Shown here: piece by piece, positions 6,629-22,682 of the stretch
Layout of the letters: each line of letters opens with the position of its first letter
Numbering within the stretch: position 1 is the stretch's first letter
NCBI GenBank assembly: GCA_017620295.1
Contig: JAFZQR010000097.1
Span: forward strand, 2,905 to 66,904
Direction: 5' to 3'
Length of the DNA stretch: 64,000 nt
From: Bacteroidaceae bacterium
GTDB lineage: Bacteria > Bacteroidota > Bacteroidia > Bacteroidales > Bacteroidaceae
Notes under the pieces: model-generated
Databases searched by the model: none
The model's input: the letters and a program-made list of their open reading frames with translations, nothing else
Told to the model about the DNA's origin: nothing
Program-made: the position numbers and the translations under genes

Positions 6629-7298
6629 TCAGATTGAGTTCCAAAACCTTGTTTTTGCATAGATGGAAAATCAGACACGGGATGGTAACACCTATCATAC
6701 TACCTACACATACGTCCGATAGGAAGTGTTGGGAAAGGTAGATACGTGAGTAGCCACCTAGAGCAGCAAGTGCCAGCAACAGTAACAGCAATAGATTAAA
6801 CAGGATCTGTGTCCTGAGGTCGTGTCGGTTTGCTTGGCGTAGATAATGGTATGCCAGGATAAAGGCGCAACAAGTGAAGAAGATGAAGAATGTGGAAGTG
6901 TGACCCGATGGGAACGAATTGCTGTGATGCATGTGTACACCATCCACCAGCGGCAAAACCAAATCGGGGTAATTATCGAACACGCTAACAGGGCGCGGGG
7001 CAGAGAAAATGCGTTTCAAAATTTGCACCATAGCACCTCCCGACAGCTCACATAAAGCAAAGAAGATTGTGATTTCTTTTTTCTTCCATGCAAGAGGAAG
7101 CAGAGCCAACACATATAATGGCCATTCTGCCAACATGGAATAATACTTAAAGATGGTGTCCTGTAGATTGGAATGACAAGAGTTTAGCAACAGATGAAGC
7201 TCAACTTTCGGGTATGCATAGAGCATCCCAAGCATGAGCATCAGCAATATAAAATATGCCACATAATAGACAGAGAGTGTTTTCAATATCTGTTTCAT
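6615..7298 (-). CDS. PAP2-family phosphatase (lipid A 1- or 4'-phosphatase candidate, LpxE/LpxF-like)
   Basis: All three PAP2 motifs are present: KRIFSAPRP, PSGH, and SRIYLSQHFLSDV. Multi-TM protein in a lipid A operon. Confidence 0.8.
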   Translation of the reverse strand: MKQILKTLSVYYVAYFILLMLMLGMLYAYPKVELHLLLNSCHSNLQDTIFKYYSMLAEWPLYVLALLPLAWKKKEITIFFALCELSGGAMVQILKRIFSAPRPVSVFDNYPDLVLPLVDGVHMHHSNSFPSGHTSTFFIFFTCCAFILAYHYLRQANRHDLRTQILFNLLLLLLLALAALGGYSRIYLSQHFLSDVCVGSMIGVTIPCLIFHLCKNKVLELNLNETK

Positions 7299-9091: not shown

Positions 9092-9092
9092 T

Positions 9093-10922: not shown

Positions 10923-10925
10923 AGA

Positions 10926-12911
10926 TTATTCTTTGTTGATAACTAGTTGGTCGTTGTTCATGCGTTGCATGTACTGTTGAATAATGGATTTCATCTGACG
11001 TGTCATCATGTTGAGCGTATCTGTCGGCATGATGCCTAGCACGTTGTGTGCAAACACTGAGTCCGTCTGATAGCGGTAGGCTGCAGTAACGTCCTTCCCG
11101 TCAAATTCTATTGCATAGCGCCCTTTCACAAACTCATAACCGCTGCTTTCTGGAACCCAGTGCAGCGCATGTGTTTCCTCCGTAGGCGTCTGAAGCATAT
11201 CTTTACCAAATGCGATATATGGCTGGTCGTAGTGGAGGTAGGATAGCACGGTTGGCATGATGTCGATCTGTTCCACCACACGCTCGCAGTCGTATCCGTG
11301 CAGGGTGCTGTCGCCTGGCGCATAGAAGATTATGGGTACGTTGTAGTGTCCAAGTGTTGTGTTGTAGAAGGGGTCGGTGTGGGTGCTGCAGTGGTCTGCT
11401 GTGATGACAAACAACGTGTTCTCGAACCAAGGCTCATGGCTGGCTCGTTCAAAGAACCGTCTCATGGCATTGTCACTGTACGCAATACATTCTTGCAACT
11501 CTTGTTCACCCTTTGGGAACTTATCTTTGTAGCGTTCTGGTATGTCGAATGGGGGATGCGATGAGGCTGTGAACACAGCTGTCATGAATGGCTGCTGCAT
11601 CTCGCTCATCTTTGCAGCGAAGAATTGTAGGAACTCTTCGTCCCAGATAGCCCATGTGCCATCGAAGTCGTCATCACCGTTGAAACGTGAATCTTCGTTG
11701 TACTCGGTCCGACCCAAATAGCGGCGGAAGCCTGTGGCACGGGCAAATGCCTGAAAACCCATTGAATTGTTCTGGGCACCGTGGAAAAAAGCTGTAGTGT
11801 AGCCTTTCTGTTCGCCTAGCTCACGAGCCAGACCTGACATGTGGTTAAGAGAGGCGGGTGTCAGGAACAGCGGTTCGACGAAATTGGGAAGTGATGACAG
11901 GGTGGATGGCATTCCTTCGATACTCTTTCGCCCATTAGCATACGAGTATTGCCACGTCATGGCGTGGCTCTCAATTAATGAGTCGAGAAATGGCGTGAAC
12001 CCTTTGAAGGAACCTTCGCGCAAGCTCTTGTTGTAGAACCCGAAGTGCTGTTTGCTGAAACTCTCCAGAATGAATACTACAATGTTCTTTGGTGTGAACA
12101 TTATAGTGTCGGTCGGTGTGTGAACAGGAGAGTACAGTGCTGCCGCCTCTTCATCGCTCATGTAGTTGGGTACGGTCATCGGTGTGTTGCCCAAAGTGCG
12201 ATATATGCTAAACGGCGTGTTCAAAACGATGCCAGTCTCAGCAGGGCGGTCAACATATTGGTTGGCGTTGCTTATCGTAATGGGGCGTATGGCAGCAGTG
12301 AAGCCTCCTCGCATACCGCCTATGCACAACGGCACAGCCAAGAGCAGGGCTGTCACTTGCACTGCGTAGTAGCGTTTCTTGTTGTCGATTGCAACAACCT
12401 TCGAACCGCGAGGCTGGAACACAATCCAAAGCAGCCACGACAGAGCAAATCCCAGCAGCACCAGGTACCAGTTTGCCAGAAACTGCTCACCCATAATCTT
12501 TGCCATACCGCCAAAGCCCTCGTTGCTGAACTCTGCGAAGACGCTGCTTGTGGTGCGCTTCCCGGTGTAGGGGAAATAGACACAGTCCATCAGGTTTGCC
12601 CACACGGCAACAGTGTTGCACACCACAAAGAGCCATTGCACAGTCTTGTAGTAAGACTTCCGCTCTTTCCAATGTAGCGGCAGTAGCATCATGACAATTA
12701 CCACTGCATTAGTATAGAGTATTGCTGAAGTGTCGAATATTATACCTGCACCAAAGAGCTCAAGACCGTGACTCCAAGTCATTGTCTCTGAGAATAGCCC
12801 CCAGTTCATAAGTAGGAACACTAGTCGGCACAGTGTGAACATCACATACATTACCAGCAGGTTCACCGCCAGTGCTATTACGGGGTAACGGTTATTGATT
12901 GCAAGTTTCAT
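10926..12911 (-). CDS. LTA-synthase-family sulfatase/phosphotransferase (membrane-anchored), paralog of 7298-9091
   Basis: Multi-TM N-terminus plus a sulfatase domain (FILESFSKQHF, ITADHCSTH). The track start at 12932 is TTG; the ATG at 12911 (MKLAINN) is more likely. Confidence 0.7.
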   Translation of the reverse strand: MKLAINNRYPVIALAVNLLVMYVMFTLCRLVFLLMNWGLFSETMTWSHGLELFGAGIIFDTSAILYTNAVVIVMMLLPLHWKERKSYYKTVQWLFVVCNTVAVWANLMDCVYFPYTGKRTTSSVFAEFSNEGFGGMAKIMGEQFLANWYLVLLGFALSWLLWIVFQPRGSKVVAIDNKKRYYAVQVTALLLAVPLCIGGMRGGFTAAIRPITISNANQYVDRPAETGIVLNTPFSIYRTLGNTPMTVPNYMSDEEAAALYSPVHTPTDTIMFTPKNIVVFILESFSKQHFGFYNKSLREGSFKGFTPFLDSLIESHAMTWQYSYANGRKSIEGMPSTLSSLPNFVEPLFLTPASLNHMSGLARELGEQKGYTTAFFHGAQNNSMGFQAFARATGFRRYLGRTEYNEDSRFNGDDDFDGTWAIWDEEFLQFFAAKMSEMQQPFMTAVFTASSHPPFDIPERYKDKFPKGEQELQECIAYSDNAMRRFFERASHEPWFENTLFVITADHCSTHTDPFYNTTLGHYNVPIIFYAPGDSTLHGYDCERVVEQIDIMPTVLSYLHYDQPYIAFGKDMLQTPTEETHALHWVPESSGYEFVKGRYAIEFDGKDVTAAYRYQTDSVFAHNVLGIMPTDTLNMMTRQMKSIIQQYMQRMNNDQLVINKE

Positions 12912-12997
12912 TACTCTTGTCCTGTCTTCCAAGGCGCAAAATTAAGCAAAAAGCATGAAAACCGTGTACTTGCGACCCCGCATTCAGCATTCTTTTG

Positions 12998-13040: not shown

Positions 13041-14267
13041 ATGAAAAAGATAAAATATGTCGTCATATCGGTAGTTGTCATCGCACTCGGTTTGTGGGTC
13101 TGGTCGCGTTGGGATGTGTGGTTCCATAATCCAGAAGAGCCGCCCTATACCCCACAACCTTACCCTCATCGTGTGCTGTTGACCTTTGGCGACAGTGATG
13201 GGCGAGCTTCACGAAACGTCAGTTGGCAGTGCGATTCTGTACTCCACGCTTCTTGGCTTGAGCTTGTGGCACTGCCTGATAGCGACACCGTCCGCATCCA
13301 AGCCAAAGGTGAGGTGTTCCGTTCCCGAAGTGGACAGGCTGCTTTCTACGTGGCACGCTTGCGTGGACTCAAGGGCGATGCTGCCTATTCCTATCGTGCC
13401 GTCACCAACGGGAAGTCATCGCCTTGGTACAGCTTTACCACACCATCCGACAACTCGCGTCTTTCTTTTCTTTATGTCGGTGACGTCCAGGACACCATTG
13501 ACGGCAAAGCTAACTGTTTCCTTCGGGAGGCATTTGAGCATCATCCACAGAGCGAGTTCCTTGTGTGTGGCGGTGACCTCACCGAGAGACCTATGGACAA
13601 GTTTTGGGCTGAGACATTTCGGGGACTGGATGGCATAGGGCAGACCAAGCCTGTTCTTGTTGTAACAGGCAATCACGACTACCTCAAGGGGGTTATCATG
13701 ACTCTTGAAAGGCGCTTCTCTCTAATCTTGTCCTACTTTCTCGACTCTAAAGTGGGCGATAACCAAGTCTATACACTATCCTACGGCCCTGCTCAGTTCT
13801 TCCTTCTCGACAGCAACCGCGAGTTCCCCTATCTCTTCACCCAGCGCAAGTGGCTCCGACAGCAGCTCCAGCAGAGCCGTGCCAAGTGGAAGATTGTCAT
13901 TCTCCACCATCCGCTCATCTCCATCAAGCACAAGAACAACAACCTCTTCCAGCGATGGGCGTTCAAGGACCTGATTGAGGAGTATGGGGTTGACCTTGTA
14001 CTGCAAGGACACGAACATGCTTATGGAAGATTCGCTACCCGCCAGCCCGACAATCGTCCTACCACTCCCGTATATACAATCAGCCATTGTTCGCCAAAGA
14101 GCTATAGTGTCCATTCTGCAGACCGCTTTGACATAGTCTCTAGGGAAGGACGCTATTATCAGTCAGTGTCCATTAATGCCGACACGCTTGTCATGGCTGC
14201 CTACGATGTCTATACCCACTCAGCCATAGACTCTATCCGAATCATCAAAATTAGAGGCCGCCGCTGA
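13041..14267 (+). CDS. Metallophosphoesterase (purple-acid-phosphatase-like), secreted or membrane-anchored
   Basis: N-terminal hydrophobic anchor. Calcineurin-like motifs GDVQD, GGDLTE, GNHDY, HHPL and GHEHAY. Confidence 0.8.
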   Translation: MKKIKYVVISVVVIALGLWVWSRWDVWFHNPEEPPYTPQPYPHRVLLTFGDSDGRASRNVSWQCDSVLHASWLELVALPDSDTVRIQAKGEVFRSRSGQAAFYVARLRGLKGDAAYSYRAVTNGKSSPWYSFTTPSDNSRLSFLYVGDVQDTIDGKANCFLREAFEHHPQSEFLVCGGDLTERPMDKFWAETFRGLDGIGQTKPVLVVTGNHDYLKGVIMTLERRFSLILSYFLDSKVGDNQVYTLSYGPAQFFLLDSNREFPYLFTQRKWLRQQLQQSRAKWKIVILHHPLISIKHKNNNLFQRWAFKDLIEEYGVDLVLQGHEHAYGRFATRQPDNRPTTPVYTISHCSPKSYSVHSADRFDIVSREGRYYQSVSINADTLVMAAYDVYTHSAIDSIRIIKIRGRR

Positions 14268-14274
14268 TTTCTCT

Positions 14275-15204
14275 TCATTTATTCAGGTTTCGGGGATGAT
14301 GCGCCAGTATCTCATCCCGTAGCTTGCTTCGGTCTATGTGCATATAAATCTCAGTTGTGCCTATATCTTCGTGACCCAGCATCTCCTGTATGGCTCGCAG
14401 GTTTGCCCCCCCTTCCAGCAGATGTGTTGCAAAGCTGTGACGGAACGTGTGGGGACTGATTGTTGTTCGCAATCCTGTACGCAGGCATAGCTCCTTGATT
14501 ATATGGAACACAGTCACACGCGACAGGCTTGACCCGCGCCTCACACTCACAAACAGCACATCCTCCATTCCCTGCTTCAACTTCACCTTATCCCTATCTG
14601 CAAACCATGATTGCAGCTCCTGAACAGCTCTGGTTGACAATGGAACCAGACGTTCTTTCTTACCCTTGCCGTGAACCCTGATAAAGCCCTCATCCAGGAA
14701 CACATCGCTCAACTTCAGTCCGCAAAGCTCACTCACCCGTAGTCCGCATGAATATAGCATCTCCAGGATAGCCCTGTCACGTATGCCCTCGGCCTTGGTC
14801 AAATCCACAGCATCTATTAGCATCTCTATCTCTTCCAAACTCATCACATCAGGCAGATGCTCGCCTCGTGATGGCGATTCCAATAGCTCTGTAGGGTCTG
14901 TTTCCAACTCGCTCTCCAACACCAGGAATCTGTAGAAGGCATGAACCCCCGACACAATCCTAGCCACACTTCTCCGGGATATGCCCAAGTCAAATAATGT
15001 CGCAACAAACCTGTTCAGCTCGTCCAGCGTCACTGCTCTGTAGTCAATACCTTCCAACTCGTAGAACTCTAGCAGTTTATCCAAGTCGCGCATATATGCA
15101 TCGAGCGTGTTCGCACTGAACCCACGCTCCAACCTCAAGAACTGCACATACCGTCGAAGTATAGACTTCGACACTAGGCTGCCTTCTTTCTCATTTAATC
15201 TCAT
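14275..15204 (-). CDS. xerD: Site-specific tyrosine recombinase XerD
   Basis: N-terminal SAM-like core-binding domain (FLRLERGFSANTLDAYMRDL). C-terminal HTFRHSFATHLLEGGANLRAIQEMLGHEDIGTTEIYMH with the catalytic Tyr. Its ATG lies inside the last codons of the upstream gene. Confidence 0.85.
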   Translation of the reverse strand: MRLNEKEGSLVSKSILRRYVQFLRLERGFSANTLDAYMRDLDKLLEFYELEGIDYRAVTLDELNRFVATLFDLGISRRSVARIVSGVHAFYRFLVLESELETDPTELLESPSRGEHLPDVMSLEEIEMLIDAVDLTKAEGIRDRAILEMLYSCGLRVSELCGLKLSDVFLDEGFIRVHGKGKKERLVPLSTRAVQELQSWFADRDKVKLKQGMEDVLFVSVRRGSSLSRVTVFHIIKELCLRTGLRTTISPHTFRHSFATHLLEGGANLRAIQEMLGHEDIGTTEIYMHIDRSKLRDEILAHHPRNLNK

Positions 15205-18200
15205 ATCCCGCCTCGTTTAATGTCGGCAAAACCACATCAGCCAGTAGTCTTACAGCTGCTGACGATGTCAGCCTGCCTATATGCTCCAGTCGAATTGCGA
15301 TAGCCAGCTCATGACGTAGATGTGCTGAATGTATGAAGCATATGTACCATCCGTCATTGTTCTTTGGACTTATGCCCCGCTCTGGTGTGCCGGTCTTGCC
15401 GCCTAGAGTGTTTTGTGGGTCGAGGTCGGGTAGGGCATAGGCGTATGGCCTGCCCTTATGCTTGTTGGCCTCGCTACGCATGAAACCTGCCAATGTCCTT
15501 GCGCTGGTTGTTGGTAGGACCTGTATTGGAGTAGCCAGGGGACGCGGGGTGTAGTCCGCGCCTGAGCCTGTGGCCATGACATACCGTGTCGGTGCAAGTC
15601 GTCCGTTATTGGCGATTGTGGCTGCCACTCGTGCCATAGCCAGAGGCGATGCTGTGAGGTCTCCTTGTCCCCATGCCATAGCGGTCTCGAACATATTCAT
15701 CTTCCAGAACCTCTGTCCTGCGTGTCCGGTGCTACGAACCCTCTCATGTCGCTTCCAGTAGAGGTCGTATTCATGGGTTGCTGCTTTGGCATGCAGGCTC
15801 ATGTTGTTGGCAAAGGCCTCGCGGCTGCTGTCGGATTGTTCGTTGCTGAAGAGATAGTATGGTGTCATTGGCCTCGGACGGTTCAGCGTCATTCCCATGA
15901 CATCGTATATCACAGTCAGCTCTTTGTATAGTGTGGAGGCATCGTCGTGGATGAGTCGTATGAAGTAGCAGTTCGATGACCGTACAATTGCTGTCTCCAT
16001 GTCAACGTTTCCCACAGGCTCTACACCAGGTGGTTCAATGCAGTCGGTGGCATCTATGAGATATGTGCGAGAGGCATTGGCTGGGTCACGTTTCAGGGCT
16101 GCCATTGCGGATACTACCTTCGCTGTCGAGCCAGGGGCTGTGGCGAAAGTAAGTCCCAGGTCGCGCTCCGTGTAGGCCATAGGCTCTGAGTTTTCCTTGT
16201 AGGAGTAGATACGCTCGCTGAAGCGTGAACGTATAGTGTCCTGGACAGGCAGCGGGTAGAGTGCGGAGCAGAGAAGGTCACCCTTCTGGGCATCCAGTAT
16301 CACCACAGAGGCTCTCACCTTCTTTAGCCCTTCACCGTGGATGTACAGAACGTCTCCTATCTGCTCTTTGAGATGGTTTTGCAGCCTTACTTGTAGTGTG
16401 GCATCGAGGGTGAGGTGTAGGTCGCGTTGGTAGCGGGTCGAGTTGTGGGCTGCAGTATGTGGTCCTCCTAAACCTTCTTTCAGCATGTCCAGCAGGTAGG
16501 AGTAGTCGCGGTGGGCTATGCGACGTTCCTGCACCACAGGTGGCATATATGGCGACACCCTGTGCTGGTCGGTGTGGAGCGTGTCGGTAACAATATTTCC
16601 TAGTTTGTCGCGGGCATATATGTCGAAGCCGCGCAGATAGCTCTCATGGCGGCTCTCTGCGAGATAGCCGTAAGGGTCGCTGTCATTGATGTTCCACAGA
16701 TTTTGGGTGTTGGCATCACCAAGCATGAAGAACAGATGGTTGCCGCAAGGGTAGAACCGTGCCTGTCGCTGCCGTGCCTCTGTCTCTATGGCATCTGGCG
16801 AAATGCCTATGGCACTGTATATTCCTATGCTGTCCAGCAACGACTGTGACACACTGGTGGCTAGTAGCAGGCCGTTGCGGTCGTAGATGTTTCCTGCATG
16901 AAGCTGCTGTAATAGTAGGCGTATGCGGGGATTGTAGGCTGTGATGCGTTCCCCTTGGTTGGTTGTGACGTATGCGGGGCGAATGAGCATCTCGTCGCGA
17001 GCCGACACTTGATAGTGCCACAGCACAGCCAGAAGCAATCCCGCTAGTGACAGAAATGCCAGGCTGCCCCCAGCAACGGAACTGTTGTAGCTCTGTTGGC
17101 TTTGTTGCTGCAATGCGGTTGGGCGGTAGCGCGAGGCTCCTATTGCAGTTCCAAAAGCAGCCAGGTTGATGATGAGGCTGGACTTGCCAAAGCTCAGGAA
17201 TGGCACTGCCACACCTGTAAGTGGAATGAGTCCCAGCGAGCCAGCCACGATAACTACGAACTGTACACCTGTAACAAGTGCTATTCCTGCAAGCAGGAAG
17301 AAAGCAAAGGGATGGGCTGCCCTGCAGCCTAGTTTCAGGCAGTGGCGTATGACTGCAGTCATTAGAACAACTACAATCACCAGGGCTACCCAGCCAAGCT
17401 GCTCACCAATGCTGATGAACACCATGTCGGTGTGGAAGGCGGGTATGAAGGTTACGTTTCCCCTTCCCAGTCCCTGGCCGGACAAACCTCCCGTGGCCAA
17501 TGCCCATACGCCTTGTGCCACCTGGTCGCCGCCAGGCACGTTGTTGTTCCAGACGCCATCGCCCGACATTGCCATACGGTAGAGCAGTCGTTGCGCACCG
17601 TTTATATGTGCAGCTGCGAGCAGGTTGCCGCCTATGGCAAAGGCTGAGAGTAGCAGATTCATCATCATGGCACTCTCGTAGATGACGTGTCGCCGGACCC
17701 ACCATACCAGCATCCATAGCACAAACCATCCAGCCACGCATAGCAACATAACGGCTGTGCTGCTTCCTAGAAGCATCTGTCCGCCAGCCAGCACAGCAGC
17801 GTAGCTCACCACTCCAAGCAGCAACTGAGGCAAATCCTGACGGGCTATGGAATATAGCAGGATGAAAGTGCCGGCCAGCACCAGTGCCGGTCCCATGTCG
17901 CTGATGAGCAGTAGGTAGAGCGAGAGCAGCAGGAGCAGTGCCAACGTGATGCCGCCAACGGTACGCAGCTGCAGTCTCAGTGTGCGGGCTGTGGCTTGGC
18001 GGCTGAAGGTCTGGATGCGTTCTGCACCGTAGGGGGAGGCAAAATAGGCTGCAAAGGCTGTCACAATCAGATATTTCGACACCTCGCTGGGTTGGAAGAA
18101 CCATAGGTTCACCCTCGCATCACTGCCCTCAGGGCCTGTGCCGAAGAGGTAGAGCATCACCACAAGCAGCATGGCGGCTGCCATACAGCCCCATTGTAGC

Positions 18201-19360
18201 CATCGGTAGTGCCGCATCAGCGGGATTACTTTAAGCTGTGAGGCTCCCAGCATCACCGTCACACCCCACATCACGCCAGACGTCATGGCCTCGCCCAGCA
18301 GACTGTCGGAGAGAGGATCGACCATAGCAAACATCATCACCACGCAGAGGCCGGTGAGCATCATCAGCAGCAGAGGCAAGATGCGGTCGGAGTGCTTGCC
18401 TGTGCGGTAATCCATAAAGCCTAGAAAAAGATAGGCTACAGCCCATGAGGCCAGAAACAGAATCATTGACCAGTGTAAGACACTCACGTACTGCTCTGGC
18501 GTACGTACCACCATGGCACGGTTTGTCTTCGCCCGTTTATAGATTGCGGTGGTCAGGGGCGGGATGGTGTGTTCGCGTTCTCTGAACGAGTGCCTGGCTG
18601 GGGCTGATAGTGGCGCATCGCGGGTTCCGCGAGGACGTCCGTACTGACAGCCGTCCTTGACAGGTGTCACGCTGTAGCACCATCCCTCAGGTACATCGAA
18701 ATTGGCGTCACCCCGAGCATCGGTCATGGCGTAGGCGGCCACTGTATTCACAGCGGTAGGCTCTTCTGCAGTGTTGCTTCTGTCTAAGGTGTGGCGTGTC
18801 AGGACAACCACCACTCCCTCTCTAGGCTTATGGTCGGAGCCGTCCTCAACATGTACTGTTACTCCTATGCCCACCTGTTCGTAGGCCATACTGTCCATGT
18901 TCGTCACAGCGGCTTTGGCCTCTCTGTTTGCCTCGTCTATGGACAGTGTCCTGGAGTATATGCGCTCCACCTCAGGCGTAAGCCCCACTTGTAGTCGCGA
19001 CATAGCGGCCCGCTCCCTCATCCTTGGCCCTCCGGCAGAGTCGGCATACCACAGCGGCATAGCAAAGACCGGACGATTCAGAGTTCCCAGATTGGGCATT
19101 GCGTGTCCAGAAACCATCAGTCGGTCTGTAATCCAGCTGGCCACACAGTGGGCATCGCGCTCATCCTCCATGAACCCCTCTTTTAGCAGCAGCCGTTGAA
19201 GTGCTTCTGGAGACGTCTGTTCCGTCAGACACAGGCCGGAACCTTCCAACGTTAGGGCCTCGTAGTCATCGAATATGGACTGCTGGCGTTTGAGCAGAGT
19301 GCCACATGCCATGATGAACACCACAGCCACAATAACATAGCCCAATACACCTCTCCACAT
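15191..19360 (-). CDS. Fusion protein: N-terminal ~300-aa domain + SEDS (FtsW/RodA/SpoVE) glycosyltransferase + class B penicillin-binding protein transpeptidase
   Basis: SEDS motifs FQPSE, DMGP, HTDMVF, GEQLG and PLTGVAVPFLSFGKSS. Then a TM anchor (LAFLSLAGLLLAVLW) and PBP motifs STAK, SSN and KTGT. A single 1389-aa ORF. Confidence 0.85.
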   Translation of the reverse strand: MWRGVLGYVIVAVVFIMACGTLLKRQQSIFDDYEALTLEGSGLCLTEQTSPEALQRLLLKEGFMEDERDAHCVASWITDRLMVSGHAMPNLGTLNRPVFAMPLWYADSAGGPRMRERAAMSRLQVGLTPEVERIYSRTLSIDEANREAKAAVTNMDSMAYEQVGIGVTVHVEDGSDHKPREGVVVVLTRHTLDRSNTAEEPTAVNTVAAYAMTDARGDANFDVPEGWCYSVTPVKDGCQYGRPRGTRDAPLSAPARHSFREREHTIPPLTTAIYKRAKTNRAMVVRTPEQYVSVLHWSMILFLASWAVAYLFLGFMDYRTGKHSDRILPLLLMMLTGLCVVMMFAMVDPLSDSLLGEAMTSGVMWGVTVMLGASQLKVIPLMRHYRWLQWGCMAAAMLLVVMLYLFGTGPEGSDARVNLWFFQPSEVSKYLIVTAFAAYFASPYGAERIQTFSRQATARTLRLQLRTVGGITLALLLLLSLYLLLISDMGPALVLAGTFILLYSIARQDLPQLLLGVVSYAAVLAGGQMLLGSSTAVMLLCVAGWFVLWMLVWWVRRHVIYESAMMMNLLLSAFAIGGNLLAAAHINGAQRLLYRMAMSGDGVWNNNVPGGDQVAQGVWALATGGLSGQGLGRGNVTFIPAFHTDMVFISIGEQLGWVALVIVVVLMTAVIRHCLKLGCRAAHPFAFFLLAGIALVTGVQFVVIVAGSLGLIPLTGVAVPFLSFGKSSLIINLAAFGTAIGASRYRPTALQQQSQQSYNSSVAGGSLAFLSLAGLLLAVLWHYQVSARDEMLIRPAYVTTNQGERITAYNPRIRLLLQQLHAGNIYDRNGLLLATSVSQSLLDSIGIYSAIGISPDAIETEARQRQARFYPCGNHLFFMLGDANTQNLWNINDSDPYGYLAESRHESYLRGFDIYARDKLGNIVTDTLHTDQHRVSPYMPPVVQERRIAHRDYSYLLDMLKEGLGGPHTAAHNSTRYQRDLHLTLDATLQVRLQNHLKEQIGDVLYIHGEGLKKVRASVVILDAQKGDLLCSALYPLPVQDTIRSRFSERIYSYKENSEPMAYTERDLGLTFATAPGSTAKVVSAMAALKRDPANASRTYLIDATDCIEPPGVEPVGNVDMETAIVRSSNCYFIRLIHDDASTLYKELTVIYDVMGMTLNRPRPMTPYYLFSNEQSDSSREAFANNMSLHAKAATHEYDLYWKRHERVRSTGHAGQRFWKMNMFETAMAWGQGDLTASPLAMARVAATIANNGRLAPTRYVMATGSGADYTPRPLATPIQVLPTTSARTLAGFMRSEANKHKGRPYAYALPDLDPQNTLGGKTGTPERGISPKNNDGWYICFIHSAHLRHELAIAIRLEHIGRLTSSAAVRLLADVVLPTLNEAGYEIK

Positions 19361-19366
19361 ACCGAT

Positions 19367-20125
19367 TTAAGTGAGGCTTATCCTGAAGCAATAATTGCTC
19401 ACCACATCAATACCTCGCATCGCTTCTGGGTTGATTACTATCTTCTGAATCTGTGTGGTTGCGGCCCTCTTGACTGTCACAACCGCACTTCCGTCATCAA
19501 TGTCACGCTCTACAGTCAGATCCTCAATCAGAGGCGTTGAGATTACTCGCGCCTGTCCAGGAGCAAGTGATTTCATTGCAGTGTCGAAAGCACCCTCGCC
19601 CTGCAGTATCTGTCCATCATTGAAAGGCAGGAACTGAAACTGCCAGAACGATGAGAGCGGAGTGAAATCGCGGAAACGTGCGTCGCGCCTCACCATGTTA
19701 TCTACTCTCTGACGCAGCTCCTTGGCCGCGTCCTCTGCATCTTTGAAGAATGTCTGCTTGAAATAGGCAAAGTCAGTAGGGTTGAGGAAAATACAATAGT
19801 TGAACGGAAACATTAGCGACTGTCTGGTGGTCAGCTTCTGCATGCCACGTTCAAACTCCTCGCAGATCAAGTCCAGAATCAATTGCCTTGACATTCCTTC
19901 AGCCTTTGGCTTATGCTTGATAAAACCCAGGCCGAACTCATCCTTTGGTACCACACTGCCAGCCGTGCGTCCATCTGCCGCTACATTAACCGCTGTGCGC
20001 TCGGAACAGTCCTCTGCAGGCATCTCTCCGAGAATCCAGTAGCGCAGCTTCTGGTAAACCACCTTCAGCCCAGCCCACAATCTCCGCAGCACATTGTTGT
20101 TATTGCCGTTATAGTAAACTCTCAT
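19367..20125 (-). CDS. Hypothetical protein resembling the FhaA N-terminal (DUF3662) domain; no recognisable FHA domain
   Basis: The central segment FPFNYCIFLNPTDFAYFKQTFFKDAEDAAKELRQRV resembles the DUF3662 pattern (vaPNxfxvxLsxxDyxxl...). It ends 6 nt before the SEDS-PBP gene. Confidence 0.45.
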   Translation of the reverse strand: MRVYYNGNNNNVLRRLWAGLKVVYQKLRYWILGEMPAEDCSERTAVNVAADGRTAGSVVPKDEFGLGFIKHKPKAEGMSRQLILDLICEEFERGMQKLTTRQSLMFPFNYCIFLNPTDFAYFKQTFFKDAEDAAKELRQRVDNMVRRDARFRDFTPLSSFWQFQFLPFNDGQILQGEGAFDTAMKSLAPGQARVISTPLIEDLTVERDIDDGSAVVTVKRAATTQIQKIVINPEAMRGIDVVSNYCFRISLT

Positions 20126-20153
20126 CTTGTATAATACTGTCGCTATACGGCTG

Positions 20154-20161
20154 CAAATATA
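20154..20161 (-). promoter_or_regulatory. -7 box (TATATTTG on minus strand) for the DUF3662-like/SEDS-PBP/xerD operon
   Basis: Plus-strand caaatata at 20154-20161 is an exact TAnnTTTG on the minus strand, 28 nt upstream of the ATG at 20125. Confidence 0.45.
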
Positions 20162-20392
20162 CCCTAAATTATTCTACCTGCCGTACCCTCCACCTTGATT
20201 TTGTTATTTCTTCAACATCCCGTTGGCAGCAAAATGCGGAAAACAGCTCTTTTTTTGTACATAAAGGCAAAAAAACAACTCATATCCTTTGTCATAGCTA
20301 AAATTATTCCAATCTTTGTGCCGAACTGATTCAAGTTTCGCTCGCCTTATCTATAAATGTACGTGAGATACCTAATCCATTGATAAATTACT

Positions 20393-20608
20393 ATGCCTGA
20401 GATAGCACGATTCTACGGTATAATAATAAAGATGTTCTTCAAGCCGAAGGAACATGATCCAGCACATATACATGCTCTATATAATGAAAATGTGGGTGTG
20501 TTTGACATTCGTACCCTTGAAATGACAGAGGGTGATATGCCTCAACGTGCTCAGCTGCTTGTTCGTGAGTGGTTATCAGCACATAAAGATGAATTGCTCA
20601 ACATGTAG
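20393..20608 (+). CDS. DUF4160-family small protein
   Basis: MPEIARFYGIIIKMFFKPKEHDPAHIHALYNE... matches the DUF4160 pattern (MPxIxxFxGxxIxxyxxEHxPxHxHaxY) as I recall it. Confidence 0.75.
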   Translation: MPEIARFYGIIIKMFFKPKEHDPAHIHALYNENVGVFDIRTLEMTEGDMPQRAQLLVREWLSAHKDELLNM

Positions 20609-20648
20609 CAAACACAGCGTATAGTTCAACTTCCACCGTTATAATACT

Positions 20649-20969
20649 ATGATACCGCGTATAAAGTCATTCGAACCTTTGGAGGATTATTGGTTGAGGG
20701 TAACATTCGACAATGGCCGCGTTGTACAATACAACGTGATGGACGACATACGCACTATACCTGCATTCCAAGACCTTGAGGAGGTGTATGGACTCTTCCA
20801 GAATGCACAACTCGACCAAAGCAGAACCTGTATCTTTTGGAACGATAGGATAGACCTTCCCAGCGATACTATTTATGAATATGGAGCCGACGAAAACAGC
20901 ACGCTTTTTGCAGCTGAGTCTGAAGCACCTGAATATATTGCTAGTACACATAAACATACTTGCTCATGA
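20649..20969 (+). CDS. DUF2442-family small protein
   Basis: Follows DUF4160 by 40 nt. The pattern IKSFEPLEDYWLRVTFDNGRV...IFWNDRIDLPSDTIY is typical of DUF2442. Confidence 0.7.
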   Translation: MIPRIKSFEPLEDYWLRVTFDNGRVVQYNVMDDIRTIPAFQDLEEVYGLFQNAQLDQSRTCIFWNDRIDLPSDTIYEYGADENSTLFAAESEAPEYIASTHKHTCS

Positions 20970-21092
20970 ACAGATAACATTAAAAGGACATACAGACATA
21001 AGCTCCATCATGAGGGCATCGGCGGCAGAGGTGTATAGAACGAGTGTTGGAATAATCTTCTTGTGTCACTTGTATGATTATTGAGGATGTTA

Positions 21093-21100
21093 TATCTTTG
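21093..21100 (+). promoter_or_regulatory. -7 box TATCTTTG for the candidate small RNA
   Basis: Exact TAnnTTTG match. A partial -33 (cTTG, 21069-21072) sits at a 20-nt spacer. Confidence 0.4.
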
Positions 21101-21104
21101 CAAC

Positions 21105-21255
21105 ACCGAAACGCATAAAGAACTTCGTCAAAAATGAATAAGGAAATGCATATATAATTGATAATGGATGTGGGATTGAATGCCAATTCCTAGTGACATA
21201 ACTCAACATCTCTCGTCAGACAAGTCCTGTGCCCCACCAGCATGGGACTTTTTTT
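21105..21255 (+). ncRNA. Candidate ~150-nt small RNA (promoter-to-terminator unit without a credible ORF)
   Basis: Bounded by the -7 box at 21093-21100 and the intrinsic terminator at 21222-21255. Only 7- and 9-codon ATG ORFs lie inside. Confidence 0.35.
21222..21255 (+). terminator. Intrinsic terminator (10-bp stem, 9-nt loop, T-run)
   Basis: aagtcctgtg (21222-21231) pairs with catgggactt (21241-21250), including two G-U pairs. The stem ends in TT and is followed by five more T (T-run 21249-21255). Confidence 0.55.
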
Positions 21256-21588
21256 GTAGGCAAGACGCGAAAGAACCTGCCGAGATGTTAGTTTGTACAT
21301 GCTGTGACAATAGTTGCAATCTGCTGACGTCGCAATTGTTTCCTGCTGAGGAAAGTTCAGATTTCTGCCGAGGTCTTGTATGTTATCTGCCAAGGTTTTG
21401 TCTCTTATCAGCCCGGGTTTTTCAATTAACCTGTCGTTGTCCTGCCTTTTTCTGGGGTGTTGTCCTGATTTTTCCTTGATTCTGCATATTATTTCAGCTG
21501 CGTTTGGAATTGATGCGGATGAAATCCGCATGAATGGACGGAACAAATAAAAAAATGAGGATACGGTAAAATGTGCTGGATTAATGAT

Positions 21589-21596
21589 TATCTTTG
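21589..21596 (+). promoter_or_regulatory. -7 box TATCTTTG upstream of the HUH transposase-like gene
   Basis: Exact TAnnTTTG match, 12-15 nt before the GTG/ATG at 21609/21612, implying a very short leader. Confidence 0.4.
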
Positions 21597-21608
21597 CGGG
21601 GAAAATGA

Positions 21609-22682
21609 GTGATGGAAGCTGGTGTTCCGTCAGTTGATTGCAAATTTCATTTGCTAATGACAAACGAGTGTTTAAGCACACCTCAGAACGAGACATTTAC
21701 ATGGCTGGAGCCTGGAACATGGCGTAAGCCATGTATCGTGCATGTGACGATGGTTGCTAACTCGCGACAGGCGTTGTTTGGAAAACTGACGCATAACGGG
21801 GCTGAGGCGGTGGTGGAAAAGAGCCGGATTGGCTGGGTTCTCATCAATCAGCAACGCCGGTTGCTGGAGTTGTGTCCTGAGATTAAGATTCTTGCAGACA
21901 AGGTGATGCCCGACCATCATCATATTGTGCTTCAGGTACAGCGGACGATGCCTCGTAGCATCAGACAAGTGGTACGAGGCTATATGCAGGGTTGTAAAGC
22001 GGAGGCACGTAAGCTGGGGCATGCTGAGAACTTATACGATGCACCGCCATTCTATCGTGTGCTGACTCATAAGGGACAGCTGCACTCGATGATAGAGTAT
22101 GTGAAGGCCAACGCTGAGCGTGCGTGGCTGCGCAGACAGCACCCCGACTTGTTCCGAATACGTCGCAGGATGGACATATTGGGGTTGCAGTTTACATCAA
22201 TGGGCAATCACTTTTTGTTGGATTGGCCAGACAGACAACAGGTGGAGATGAGCCGTAGTGCCACCGTCGAGCAGATAGATGAGCGGCTGAGGGCAGTATT
22301 GGCTGCAGCCCACAATGGTGCGGTGACCTATACAGCGGCGATTAGCAAAGGTGAACAGCTGATAGCTCGAACAGTTCGTGAGCAAGGATTCCCTCTGGTA
22401 GTGCTATTGAGCGACGGTTTTCCTTCGGAGGGTTCACCTCAAGAACGTTTCTATAAACCTGGCGGAGCTTATTTCAATGCATGTTCTATGGGCAAGCTGT
22501 TACTCCTGGAGCCAAGTGAGAGTGCTTTTGTCAATCCTGAAGTAATGATGGCTGTTGAGAAATCATTGCGACAGAAGGCTCTGTTGAAGCATCAAATATA
22601 TACCAAGATTCCGCCTTCTTCGTTGCGGTACAGGTTTGTGGCACTGAATGAGATTGGGCGGATGCTTACCAGTTGTATTTGA
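21609..22682 (+). CDS. HUH/Y1 (IS200-like, REP-associated tyrosine transposase-like) protein with a long C-terminal extension
   Basis: HUH motif VMPDHHHIVLQV and a downstream Tyr motif MIEYVKANAERAWL (compare YIxxNPxxA). Single copy; I saw no flanking inverted repeats. The start may be the ATG at 21612 or 21657. Confidence 0.6.
   Translation: MMEAGVPSVDCKFHLLMTNECLSTPQNETFTWLEPGTWRKPCIVHVTMVANSRQALFGKLTHNGAEAVVEKSRIGWVLINQQRRLLELCPEIKILADKVMPDHHHIVLQVQRTMPRSIRQVVRGYMQGCKAEARKLGHAENLYDAPPFYRVLTHKGQLHSMIEYVKANAERAWLRRQHPDLFRIRRRMDILGLQFTSMGNHFLLDWPDRQQVEMSRSATVEQIDERLRAVLAAAHNGAVTYTAAISKGEQLIARTVREQGFPLVVLLSDGFPSEGSPQERFYKPGGAYFNACSMGKLLLLEPSESAFVNPEVMMAVEKSLRQKALLKHQIYTKIPPSSLRYRFVALNEIGRMLTSCI

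What the first reader, a model, noticed from the sequence alone, without database searches (positions are those of the whole stretch)
15191..20125. Natural SEDS-class B PBP fusion (1389 aa) preceded by an FhaA-N (DUF3662)-like protein and translationally overlapped by xerD
Seen directly:
- One ORF carries a complete FtsW/RodA-type polymerase (FQPSE, HTDMVF, GEQLG, PLTGVAVPFLSFGKSS), a TM linker and a complete transpeptidase (STAK, SSN, KTGT).
- An extra ~300-aa N-terminal domain sits behind a single TM helix.
- The gene 6 nt upstream resembles the N-terminal domain of actinobacterial FhaA but lacks an FHA domain.
- No PP2C phosphatase or Ser/Thr kinase gene is present.
- The xerD ATG (15204) lies 14 nt inside the fusion gene (GGATATGAGATTAAATGA), implying translational coupling of a chromosome-dimer resolvase to a peptidoglycan synthase.

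The order FhaA-like / RodA / PbpA echoes the actinobacterial fhaA-fhaB-pstP-rodA-pbpA-pknAB cluster, here collapsed into two proteins in a Bacteroidota context. This may be an accessory or division-specific PG synthase module with a novel regulatory N-domain.
Basis: partly seen in the sequence, partly recalled or inferred. Interest (0 to 1): 0.7.

Follow-up and report, generated by a model that had tools for sequence, protein, structure and literature searches.

The report
Fused cell-wall synthase, regulators lost
One 1,389-residue protein joins the enzyme that polymerises bacterial cell wall to the enzyme that cross-links it; its family is widespread in Bacteroidota but untested, normally sits in a kinase/phosphatase/FHA cluster like the one that controls wall growth in mycobacteria, and this copy has lost every signalling part.

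Summary
Window 15191-19360(-) is an intact 1389-aa SEDS + class B transpeptidase fusion. A 252-aa gene lies 6 nt upstream, and xerD overlaps the fusion's 3' end by 14 nt.

The fusion is not an artefact and not unique. Relatives occur in at least 583 GTDB species genomes of Bacteroidales, Cytophagales, Sphingobacteriales and Chitinophagales. A 2025 survey (PMC12516126) already noted a 1341-aa Pedobacter ginsengisoli chimera of the same architecture and gene context.

The usual cluster is [252-aa-like N-domain + FHA] - [PP2C] - [fusion] - [second FHA protein] - [Hanks kinase(s)]. This is the gene content of the actinobacterial fhaA-fhaB-pstP-rodA-pbpA-pknA-pknB operon.

The window locus is a rare reduced form. 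The FHA domain, PP2C, second FHA protein and kinases are absent, with no remnants in 64 kb.

Similarity of the 252-aa protein to FhaA's N-terminal domain is weak but points consistently the same way. It is not proven.

The N-terminal extension is a confidently modelled periplasmic module (helical subdomain plus CnaB/prealbumin-like sandwich) between two extra TM helices.

The xerD overlap occurs in no other locus and looks incidental.

Verdict: a reduced variant of a known kind, of moderate interest.

The parts
20154..20161 (-). Candidate Bacteroidetes-type -7 promoter box TATATTTG (TAnnTTTG), 29 nt upstream of the 252-aa gene's ATG.
   Evidence: two TAnnTTTG matches lie on the minus strand of 13900-20500. 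This is the only one upstream of the three genes; the other (14246-14253) is beyond the xerD stop. None lies between the 252-aa gene and xerD. This is a motif match only, not evidence of function.
19367..20125 (-). 252-aa cytoplasmic protein. It is the N-terminal (FhaA_N-like) domain of the cluster's first FHA protein, with the FHA domain missing.
   Evidence: ORF. It aligns with the first ~250 residues of 316-350-aa orthologues that continue into an FHA domain. The family is found in 74 of 86 loci. No TM segment. Links to FhaA_N: top Pfam hit for the family consensus, E 0.076; hhalign against 2LC0, P 0.004-0.01, with 0/300 and 1/150 shuffles reaching the score; Foldseek places 2LC0 at rank 5, E 2.2. 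dN 0.36 with dS saturated against L001.
15191..19360 (-). 1389-aa single-chain SEDS glycosyltransferase + class B PBP transpeptidase with an N-terminal periplasmic module (NCBI MBO4907509.1).
19292..19348 (-). Extra TM helix (residues 5-23). In PP2C-fused relatives it follows the cytoplasmic phosphatase, so it most likely runs from inside to outside.
   Evidence: Hydropathy. AF2 helix 2-39 at pLDDT above 90. P0001 architecture.
18470..19291 (-). Periplasmic module (residues 24-297): a helical subdomain at about 51-136 and a CnaB/prealbumin-like beta-sandwich at about 148-263.
   Evidence: AF2 mean pLDDT 90.7, pTM 0.83. Foldseek matches to pilin CnaB domains, E 1.5e-3, probability 1.00. Family consensus hits CarboxypepD_reg at E 8e-5. 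Present in all 86 loci.
18413..18469 (-). Second extra TM helix (residues 298-316), returning the chain to the cytoplasm before the SEDS domain.
17126..18388 (-). SEDS (FtsW/RodA/SpoVE) glycosyltransferase domain (residues ~325-745). It is one domain with an insertion, and the HTD Asp645 is invariant in the family.
   Evidence: PF01098. TIGR02210 aligns residues 328-740 to model positions 4-350 in one stretch. Invariant columns include T644 and D645. Best PDB matches are FtsW 8BH1 and RodA 8TJ3/6PL5.
17021..17077 (-). PBP membrane anchor helix (residues 762-780), after a ~56-residue cytoplasmic linker.
   Evidence: Hydropathy.
15194..17005 (-). Periplasmic class B PBP part (residues 786-1389). 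It has a divergent pedestal-like region and a transpeptidase domain (Pfam 1045-1356) with S1078xxK1081, S1128-S-N1130 and K1322-T-G-T.
   Evidence: PF00905. Motif residues are invariant in 22 family members. The consensus of the pre-transpeptidase region has PBP_dimer PF03717 as its only Pfam hit, E 0.008, below cut-off.
14275..15204 (-). xerD, a tyrosine recombinase, probably co-transcribed. It is a neighbour specific to this lineage and is not part of the conserved module.
   Evidence: TIGR02225 scores 338.9 bits against a cut-off of 329.6. Named XerD by NCBI. Not adjacent to the fusion in any of 85 other loci.
15191..15204 (-). 14-nt overlap between the fusion's last codons plus stop and the xerD ATG.
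   Evidence: Sequence read directly. The overlap depends on the ATG start; a GTG at codon 11 (15174) is the alternative.

Best explanation
**What it is.** The 1389-aa ORF belongs to a Bacteroidota-wide family of natural single-chain peptidoglycan synthases. The inferred layout runs from a cytoplasmic N-terminus through TM helix, periplasmic module (helical subdomain plus CnaB/prealbumin-like sandwich), TM helix, 10-TM SEDS glycan polymerase, cytoplasmic linker and TM anchor, ending in a periplasmic class B transpeptidase.

**What it most likely does (inferred).** It polymerises lipid II and cross-links the product within one polypeptide. It probably acts as a third, accessory synthase beside the canonical RodA-PBP2 and FtsW-FtsI pairs.

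**Its normal context (shown).** In almost all relatives the gene sits in a cluster of Ser/Thr phospho-signalling genes: an FhaA-like protein (N-domain + FHA), a PP2C phosphatase, a second FHA protein and one or two Hanks kinases. This matches the gene content of the actinobacterial fhaA-fhaB-pstP-rodA-pbpA-pknA-pknB operon.

**What happened in this lineage.** A deletion removed the FHA-coding 3' end of the first gene together with the PP2C-coding 5' part of an ancestral PP2C-synthase fusion gene. The second FHA gene and the kinase genes are also gone from the locus, and xerD now abuts the synthase gene. Absence of these parts is shown; the deletion route is inferred from relatives.

**What remains.** A two-gene core is left: the cytoplasmic FhaA_N-like protein and the catalytically intact synthase. 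It is probably transcribed with xerD from one promoter upstream of the 252-aa gene. The N-domain protein most likely still binds the synthase or its partners on the cytoplasmic face, but the module is no longer gated by phosphothreonine signalling. This last step is inference.
For: **Domains and catalytic residues.** Both domains score well above Pfam cut-offs. The catalytic residues D645, S1078/K1081, S1128/N1130 and K1322-T-G-T are invariant in the family.

**Family breadth.** 133 homologues were found in the protein collection. At least 583 GTDB species genomes encode relatives.

**Cluster content.** Of 56 loci with full flanks, FhaAN occurs in 54, its FHA domain in 50, PP2C in 52, a kinase in 51 after excluding the window's LPS-kinase hit, and a second FHA protein in 54. 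Pfam confirmed these assignments in a Muribaculaceae locus and in Pedobacter heparinus. Shorter fusions in other phyla have the same neighbours.

**Reduction in the window.** No PP2C, kinase or FHA signal appears in any frame of the 64 kb. The window protein aligns only to the N-domain of its orthologues. The closest relatives P0001, P0003 and P0004 carry PP2C fused in front of the same TM helix.

**Accessory status.** Scores are 108 and 87 bits against cut-offs of ~337 for FtsW and RodA, and 77 against 455 for PBP2. No mre or dcw genes lie nearby. A P. ginsengisoli chimera of this type coexists with the canonical pairs (PMC12516126).

**N-module.** AF2 mean pLDDT 90.7, with a fold typical of extracytoplasmic proteins.

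**The 252-aa gene is still constrained.** dN is 0.36-0.42 while dS is saturated, and the ORF is intact in two diverged lineages.

**Actinobacterial operon.** Described in PMC11898655 and PMC3989709.
Against: - No enzymatic, genetic or localisation data exist for any family member.
- Homology of the N-domain to FhaA_N stays below formal thresholds. Pfam gives E 0.08-0.13. The AF2 model is poor (pLDDT 52, six-sequence alignment). Foldseek gives E 2.2.
- The rest of this MAG could not be read. It is therefore unknown whether canonical SEDS/bPBP pairs, kinases or phosphatases are encoded elsewhere and still act on this protein.
- It is unresolved whether one deletion or two parallel ones produced the reduced state, because the two gene trees disagree.
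- The pedestal domain is only weakly detectable.
- Topology comes from hydropathy and architecture, not from a dedicated predictor.
Confidence: 0.75

Rival explanations
1. The fusion is simply this organism's only RodA/PBP2 (or FtsW/FtsI) pair, fused, and doing ordinary elongation or division work.
For: - No other SEDS or PBP gene lies in the 64-kb window.
- The catalytic motifs are intact.
- The rest of the genome could not be inspected.
Against: - The protein scores far below the equivalog cut-offs for RodA, FtsW and PBP2.
- The PBP part finds no solved PBP by sequence at E<=1e-5.
- No mreBCD or dcw genes are nearby.
- The related context is a kinase/phosphatase cluster.
- A P. ginsengisoli chimera of this type coexists with intact FtsI/FtsW and MrdA/RodA.
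Confidence: 0.07
2. The 252-aa protein is a Bacteroidota-specific domain unrelated to FhaA_N. The resemblance is only an alpha/beta pattern, and only the FHA domain and the gene context are shared with actinobacterial FhaA.
For: - No Pfam hit reaches the cut-off. FhaA_N is seen in only 1 of 38 members at E 0.08.
- A profile search of 1.84 billion representatives finds only 215 relatives. The 150 listed are 116-394 aa long, mostly 305-365 aa.
- The AF2 model is poor and Foldseek gives no significant match.
Against: - FhaA_N is the top Pfam hit for the family consensus and for the L003 orthologue, over the same model region.
- Directed hhalign tests against the verified 2LC0 sequence give P 0.0036-0.0099, with 0/300 and 1/150 shuffles reaching the score.
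- 2LC0 ranks 5th of 350,542 chains, with the highest probability in the list and TMt 0.47.
- The architecture (N-domain + FHA) and the position at the head of a PP2C/SEDS/PBP/kinase cluster match FhaA.
Confidence: 0.3
3. The xerD overlap is functional. Translational coupling would tie chromosome-dimer resolution to a septal peptidoglycan synthase.
For: - There is a 14-nt overlap with the annotated ATG.
- No -7 promoter box lies between the genes.
- XerD acts at the septum together with FtsK (established knowledge).
Against: - The adjacency occurs in none of the 85 other loci.
- The nearest relatives (65% and 57% identical fusions) have an FHA-protein gene at that position.
- Short overlaps between adjacent same-strand genes are common in bacteria.
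- An alternative GTG start would abolish the overlap.
Confidence: 0.08
4. The long ORF is a frameshift or assembly artefact joining separate SEDS and PBP genes.
For: The window comes from a metagenome-assembled genome.
Against: - The identical protein occurs on 5 contigs from several sources.
- More than 100 homologues of 1300-1800 aa share the same order and junction.
- Relatives include isolates and at least one complete genome, for example Pedobacter heparinus, Spirosoma sp. KNUC1025 (complete chromosome) and Cnuella takakiae.
Confidence: 0.01

Closest known systems
Actinobacterial fhaA-fhaB-pstP-rodA-pbpA-pknA-pknB operon (M. tuberculosis Rv0020c-Rv0014c)
   Same: - The gene content matches in the related Bacteroidota loci: two FHA proteins, one with an extra N-terminal domain, a PP2C, a SEDS, a class B PBP and Hanks kinase(s). 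The order is similar too.
- The window keeps the FhaA-like / SEDS / PBP order.
   Different: - SEDS and PBP are one polypeptide here.
- An extra periplasmic module and two extra TM helices precede the SEDS domain.
- The host is a Gram-negative phylum.
- The FhaA-like protein is short (~320 aa) and its N-domain is only remotely similar to PF12401.
- In the window, the FHA domain, PP2C, second FHA protein and kinases are all absent.
1341-aa 'giant chimeric' TPase-GTase protein of Pedobacter ginsengisoli (PMC12516126, microLife 2025)
   Same: - It has the same length class and architecture, and flanking Ser/Thr kinase and phosphatase genes, and probably belongs to the same family.
- Other Pedobacter species align over residues 5-1386 at 31-32% identity.
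- It is reported to coexist with canonical FtsI/FtsW and MrdA/RodA.
   Different: - The paper calls the protein rare. Here it is found in at least 583 species genomes.
- The paper reads two tandem GTase domains. Here there is one SEDS domain, aligned in a single stretch by TIGR02210.
- The paper reports no pedestal. Here a weak PBP_dimer signal appears.
- The paper does not mention the FHA proteins or the N-terminal periplasmic module.
- The window copy lacks the kinase and phosphatase neighbours.
- P. ginsengisoli itself was not compared here.
Two-chain SEDS-bPBP complexes: RodA-PBP2 (6PL5, 8TJ3) and FtsW-FtsI (8BH1)
   Same: - The same two catalytic modules are present, with conserved motifs.
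- The PBP anchor helix follows the last SEDS helix. A 1:1 complex like the solved ones could therefore form within one chain.
   Different: - The two modules are covalently fused.
- The sequence is very divergent and far below the equivalog cut-offs.
- It has the extra N-terminal module.
- It is not in an mre or dcw context.
Class A PBPs (bifunctional GT51 + transpeptidase)
   Same: Polymerase and transpeptidase activities are carried by one polypeptide.
   Different: The polymerase here is a polytopic SEDS protein, not a GT51 domain, so the evolutionary origin is unrelated.
Mycobacterial PstP (PP2C - TM - extracellular domain)
   Same: Relatives P0001, P0003 and P0004 start with PP2C, then a TM helix, then an extracytoplasmic domain.
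   Different: The extracytoplasmic module belongs to the synthase family. It is present in all 86 loci, including those with a separate PP2C gene. It is therefore not a PstP remnant, and the window protein has no PP2C.

Membership tests
SEDS (FtsW/RodA/SpoVE) glycosyltransferases | Match to PF01098 above the gathering score | tested here: met
   120.9 bits against a cut-off of 26.4, E 8e-35. TIGR02210 aligns residues 328-740 to model positions 4-350 of 357.
SEDS (FtsW/RodA/SpoVE) glycosyltransferases | Conserved catalytic Asp in the extracytoplasmic loop (the HTD motif here) | tested here: met
   T644 and D645 are invariant in 22 family members.
SEDS (FtsW/RodA/SpoVE) glycosyltransferases | Ten transmembrane helices with both ends in the cytoplasm | tested here: inconclusive
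   A Kyte-Doolittle scan finds 9 clear segments between residues 327 and 705. A tenth, weaker one is inferred. No dedicated topology predictor was available.
RodA or FtsW proper (NCBIfam equivalogs TIGR02210 / TIGR02614) | Score above the curated equivalog cut-off | tested here: not met
   87.1 against 336.7 for RodA, and 108.2 against 337.5 for FtsW.
Class B penicillin-binding proteins | Transpeptidase domain PF00905 with SxxK, SxN and KTG motifs | tested here: met
   61.2 bits against a cut-off of 22.1. STAK (1078-1081), SSN (1128-1130) and KTGT (1322-1325) are invariant in the family.
Class B penicillin-binding proteins | N-terminal pedestal (PBP dimerisation, PF03717) between the anchor helix and the transpeptidase | tested here: inconclusive
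   No hit for the window protein at E<=1. The family consensus of that region has PF03717 as its only hit: E 0.008, 17 bits against a cut-off of 24.4.
PBP2/MrdA proper (TIGR03423) | Score above the equivalog cut-off | tested here: not met
   77.2 against 455.
FhaA (Rv0020c-type) | N-terminal domain FhaA_N / DUF3662 (PF12401) | tested here: inconclusive
   - The window protein has no hit at E<=1.
- The L003 orthologue hits at E 0.13 and the family consensus at E 0.076, as top hit, against a cut-off of 25 bits.
- hhalign against the 2LC0 sequence gives P 0.0036-0.0099, with 0/300 and 1/150 shuffles reaching the score.
- Foldseek places 2LC0 at rank 5, E 2.2, TMt 0.47, from a low-confidence model.
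FhaA (Rv0020c-type) | C-terminal FHA domain (PF00498) | tested here: not met
   The window protein ends after the N-domain, and no FHA signal appears in any frame. The domain is present in orthologues: it aligns in 69 loci, Pfam detects FHA in 8 of 38 members with best E 6.5e-5, and the profile weakly hits the Rv0020c FHA structures.
Actinobacterial-type eSTK cell-wall cluster | PP2C phosphatase and Hanks kinase genes adjacent to the SEDS/PBP genes | tested here: not met
   Absent from the whole window. Of 56 related loci with full flanks, 52 have PP2C and 51 have a Hanks kinase.
Bacteroidota single-chain SEDS-PBP family (the Pedobacter 'giant chimeric' protein type) | Full-length homology, including the N-terminal module | tested here: met
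   Residues 5-1386 align to Pedobacter, Spirosoma and Niastella proteins. The N-module HMM hits all 86 loci. P. ginsengisoli itself was not among the loci.
XerD | TIGR02225 equivalog score above cut-off | tested here: met
   338.9 against 329.6. Named XerD by NCBI.

The most novel reading that the evidence does not exclude
The reduced locus may be a natural separation-of-function experiment. On this reading the DUF3662/FhaA_N-like domain is itself the partner of the SEDS-bPBP synthase, binding or regulating it, and it works without phosphothreonine signalling. The FHA domain, PP2C and kinases would only add a switch on top.

That would assign a role to the FhaA N-terminal domain, for which none of the tool results or papers consulted here gives a function. 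It would also define a minimal two-protein wall-synthesis module that could be tested in Bacteroidota.
Probability: 0.3. Interest if true: 0.6.

Novelty: new variant of a known kind. Interest (0 to 1): 0.4.

Why it matters
**A natural single-chain synthase.** SEDS-bPBP pairs are the core wall synthases of bacteria and are targets of beta-lactams. A natural single-chain version fixes the 1:1 stoichiometry. It could be a convenient object for structural and enzymatic work.

**A conserved regulatory cluster in Gram-negative bacteria.** The Bacteroidota-wide cluster shows that the mycobacterial style of Ser/Thr-kinase, phosphatase and FHA control over a SEDS-bPBP synthase is not an actinobacterial speciality. 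It occurs in gut and rumen Bacteroidales lineages (Muribaculaceae, Prevotellaceae, Alistipes) and in soil and aquatic genera (Pedobacter, Spirosoma).

**What this copy adds.** It has shed all phospho-signalling parts but keeps the small N-domain protein under constraint. That singles out this domain as the piece most tightly tied to the synthase.

**What is ordinary.** The fusion as such is already in the databases and in one 2025 survey. The xerD overlap is incidental.

Tried and rejected
1. **The 252-aa protein as a degenerate PP2C.** It occupies the PP2C slot and has the right size. Rejected: BLASTP against the PP2C-bearing P0001 shows no similarity, and it aligns instead to the N-domain of the FHA protein.
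2. **The N-terminal TM + 270-aa module as a remnant of a PstP-like phosphatase ectodomain.** Rejected: the module is in all 86 loci, including those with a separate PP2C gene.
3. **A second SEDS or PBP gene in the window.** None found.
4. **Pseudogene remnants of kinase, PP2C or FHA in all six frames of the window.** None found.
5. **Word-indexed homologue searches for the 252-aa family.** They returned only 2 and 6 proteins. The AF2 alignment was therefore shallow and the model poor (pLDDT 52). The Foldseek result on it is not significant.
6. **Family profile against PDB sequences.** It found only weak FHA matches and nothing for the N-domain.
7. **Profile search of 1.84 billion representatives.** It stayed within one family of 215 clusters. 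None of the 150 listed hits is longer than 394 aa.
8. **The second FHA protein's N-domain against FhaA_N.** Not significant, P 0.1.
9. **One deletion or two.** Unresolved, because the fusion tree and the N-domain tree disagree.
10. **Literature searches.** Four term sets found nothing on Bacteroidota. The fifth found PMC12516126, whose supplementary tables are not held.
11. **Sigma-70 promoter and terminator scan.** Counts equalled the shuffle expectation, so it was uninformative.

Full report
**1. Checking the observation**

The three minus-strand ORFs are as described: xerD at 14275-15204 (309 aa), a 1389-aa ORF at 15191-19360, and a 252-aa ORF at 19367-20125.

The long ORF matches two Pfam families well above their cut-offs:
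- PF01098 (SEDS): E 8e-35.
- PF00905 (transpeptidase): E 1e-16.

In an alignment of 22 family members, the SEDS HTD aspartate (D645) and the PBP motif residues are invariant. The PBP residues are S1078/K1081, S1128/N1130 and K1322-T-G-T.

The junction sequences confirm both spacings. The upstream gap is 6 nt, and the fusion's stop overlaps the xerD ATG by 14 nt. NCBI annotates the same two proteins, MBO4907509.1 and MBO4907508.1, in a Bacteroidaceae MAG. A GTG at xerD codon 11 is a possible alternative start that would remove the overlap.

No second SEDS or PBP gene lies in the window.

**2. The fusion is real, widespread and already noticed**

The protein collection holds 133 homologues, nearly all 1300-1800 aa with SEDS followed by transpeptidase.

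583 confirmed relatives were found. They come from:
- Bacteroidales: Prevotellaceae, Muribaculaceae, Dysgonomonadaceae, Paludibacteraceae, Alistipes.
- Cytophagales: Spirosoma, Fibrella, Larkinella.
- Sphingobacteriales: Pedobacter, including P. heparinus.
- Chitinophagales.

An assembly artefact is therefore excluded.

A 2025 survey of peptidoglycan synthases (PMC12516126) describes a 1341-aa chimeric protein in Pedobacter ginsengisoli. It is flanked by Ser/Thr kinase and phosphatase genes and coexists with intact FtsI/FtsW and MrdA/RodA.

My data modify that description on three points:
- The family is not rare.
- TIGR02210 aligns residues 328-740 in one stretch. This indicates one SEDS domain with an insertion rather than two tandem domains.
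- The consensus of the region before the transpeptidase has PBP_dimer as its only Pfam hit, at E 0.008 and below the cut-off. A divergent pedestal is therefore likely.

The protein is neither RodA, FtsW nor PBP2 in the strict sense. Its scores of 87, 108 and 77 bits lie far below the equivalog cut-offs of 337, 337 and 455.

**3. Gene context in relatives**

I called ORFs in 86 loci and ran iterative HMM searches seeded from one well-annotated Muribaculaceae locus.

The typical arrangement is:
1. A homologue of the 252-aa protein carrying a C-terminal FHA domain (~316-350 aa).
2. A PP2C phosphatase.
3. Sometimes a kinase.
4. The fusion.
5. A second FHA protein (~260-300 aa).
6. A Hanks kinase.

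Counts among the 56 loci with at least 5 kb on both sides:

| Component | Loci |
|---|---|
| N-domain protein | 54 |
| its FHA domain | 50 |
| PP2C | 52 |
| kinase (excluding the window's LPS-kinase hit) | 51 |
| second FHA protein | 54 |

Pfam confirmed PP2C, Pkinase and FHA in the Muribaculaceae and Pedobacter heparinus loci.

Shorter fusions (1053-1141 aa) that lack the N-module occur on metagenome contigs of unknown taxonomy. Similar-length hits are named Thermoanaerobaculia and Luteitalea. They also sit between FHA, PP2C or kinase, and FHA genes.

This is the gene content of the actinobacterial fhaA-fhaB-pstP-rodA-pbpA-pknA-pknB operon (PMC11898655 and PMC3989709).

**4. The window locus is a reduced form**

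The 252-aa protein aligns only with the N-terminal ~250 residues of its orthologues and stops where their linker and FHA domain begin.

The fusion starts three residues before the first TM helix. Its closest relatives P0001 (L003), P0003 and P0004 carry a PP2C domain and linker fused in front of that same helix.

In an NJ tree, the window, L003, L001, P0003 and P0004 form one clade. The ancestor of this clade therefore probably had a PP2C-synthase fusion gene. A deletion spanning the FHA-coding end of gene 1 and the PP2C-coding start of gene 2 would produce the present junction.

HMMs for PP2C, kinase and both FHA families find nothing in any frame of the 64 kb. The only kinase-like hit is a Kdo/WaaP LPS kinase at 3377-4129.

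One other lineage, a Prevotellaceae MAG (L001/L006), shows the same reduction but keeps the downstream FHA-family gene.

It is unresolved whether the two reductions are one event or two:
- The fusion tree groups the window with the unreduced L003 in 200 of 200 bootstraps.
- The N-domain tree groups the window with L001 in 160 of 200.

The truncated gene is still under constraint. dN is 0.36-0.42 while dS is saturated.

**5. Is the 252-aa protein FhaA_N-like?**

Formal thresholds are not met:
- The window protein has no Pfam hit.
- Only 1 of 38 family members hits PF12401, at E 0.08.
- The AF2 model, built from six sequences, is poor. Mean pLDDT is 52, with the core at residues 80-170 reaching about 75.

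However, four weak signals point to this one family:
- PF12401 is the top Pfam hit for the L003 orthologue (E 0.13) and for the family consensus (E 0.076), over the same model region.
- I checked the M. tuberculosis FhaA N-terminal sequence against PDB entry 2LC0. Directed hhalign comparisons with it give P 0.0036-0.0099. They align the '...LLAPNEYIITLGVHDFEKL' segment with '...LMFPFNYCIFLNPTDFAYF'. None of 300 shuffles, and 1 of 150, reach the real score.
- Foldseek places 2LC0 fifth of 350,542 chains, at E 2.2. It has the highest probability in the list and TMt 0.47.
- The architecture and cluster position of the orthologues match FhaA.

I rate the homology at about 0.7. The label 'FhaA-like' is safe for architecture and context. 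It is unproven for the N-domain fold.

**6. The N-terminal module of the fusion**

AlphaFold2 with 52 sequences gives mean pLDDT 90.7 and pTM 0.83. The predicted elements are:

| Residues | Element |
|---|---|
| 2-39 | TM helix |
| 51-136 | helical subdomain |
| 148-263 | beta-sandwich |
| 288-320 | second TM helix |

The sandwich matches the CnaB domains of Gram-positive pilins (E 1.5e-3, probability 1.00). It also matches CarboxypepD_reg/prealbumin-like Pfam families. The helical part has no match.

In relatives, a cytoplasmic PP2C precedes the first helix. The module is therefore most likely periplasmic, and the second helix returns the chain to the cytoplasm before the SEDS domain. Hydropathy fits a 13-helix layout that ends with a periplasmic PBP. 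This topology is inference.

The module is present in all 86 loci. It is a family feature, not a remnant of a PstP ectodomain. Its function is unknown. Wall binding or sensing is a reasonable guess.

**7. xerD**

xerD is a bona fide XerD (TIGR02225 above its cut-off).

Two Bacteroidetes-type -7 boxes (TAnnTTTG) lie on the minus strand of 13900-20500. Only the one 29 nt upstream of the 252-aa gene precedes the three genes, and none lies inside the three-gene stretch. Co-transcription is therefore plausible.

No other locus has xerD next to the fusion. The five other XerD-like hits are integrases that lie elsewhere in their loci. The closest relatives have the second FHA gene at that position. 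The overlap is best read as a by-product of the rearrangement that removed the downstream genes.

**8. Mechanism, novelty and score**

*Shown:*
- The domains, the intact catalytic motifs and the breadth of the family.
- The conserved signalling neighbourhood in relatives.
- The absence of that neighbourhood from the window.

*Inferred:*
- The protein is an accessory single-chain lipid II polymerase and cross-linker.
- In most Bacteroidota it is gated by Ser/Thr phosphorylation read out by the FHA proteins.
- In this lineage it runs without that gate while keeping the small N-domain partner.

The family and its kinase/phosphatase flanks were noted in 2025, and the type of regulatory cluster is classical in Actinobacteria. 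This is therefore a reduced variant of a known kind.

It is worth a specialist's attention mainly for two reasons. The cluster is far more general than the literature suggests. The reduced locus also singles out the FhaA_N-like domain as the part most tightly linked to the synthase.

Interest: 0.4.

Noticed in passing
L003:1256-6475, L033:8969-13885, and proteins P0001, P0003, P0004: These are four-part natural fusions of 1638-1796 aa: PP2C phosphatase, TM helix, periplasmic module, SEDS and class B PBP. The regulator and the synthase lie in one chain.
   Followed up: partly
L086:5114-11962 and L087:5945-12223: Shorter SEDS-PBP fusions (1053-1141 aa) without the N-module, probably from other phyla, are also flanked by FHA, PP2C or Pkinase, and FHA genes. 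L086 additionally has a 924-aa PF13809 Tubulin_2 gene two genes downstream.
   Followed up: no
window 19367-20125 and 15191-19360, compared with L001 and L003: The two gene trees disagree. The fusion groups the window with L003 (200/200). The upstream protein groups the window with L001 (160/200). The loss of FHA plus PP2C was therefore either one event followed by recombination or two parallel deletions.
   Followed up: partly
L042 (Spirosoma endophyticum DSM 26130), L017 (Dysgonomonas termitidis), L014: Other partly reduced loci exist. L042 keeps only the fusion and the second FHA gene within a 24-kb locus. L017 shows the fusion alone on an 11.8-kb contig. L014 has no kinase within 10 kb.
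   Followed up: no
window 3377-4129 (-): A 250-aa Kdo/WaaP-family LPS kinase (PF06293, E 4e-11). It was the only kinase-like hit in the window and is unrelated to the synthase module.
   Followed up: yes
window 7298-12932 (-): Two sulfatase-superfamily membrane proteins (597 and 668 aa, PF00884) flank an ABC exporter (609 aa). From memory, the size and membrane N-terminus resemble LTA-synthase or phosphoethanolamine-transferase proteins; this was not tested.
   Followed up: no
window 30315-34133 (-): A 1272-aa Peptidase_C25 (gingipain-family) protein with a C-terminal Ig-like region.
   Followed up: no
window 20126-22682: This stretch upstream of the operon has lower GC (0.43 against ~0.54). 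It holds a DUF2442 ORF (20649-20969, +) and a 357-aa ORF (21609-22682, +) with no Pfam hit. It could mark a rearrangement boundary.
   Followed up: no
PMC12516126, section on large chimeric bPBPs: The published description of the Pedobacter ginsengisoli protein, a probable homologue, gives two tandem GTase domains, no pedestal, and calls it rare. This differs from what the profiles show here: one SEDS domain, a weak pedestal signal, and at least 583 species genomes.
   Followed up: partly
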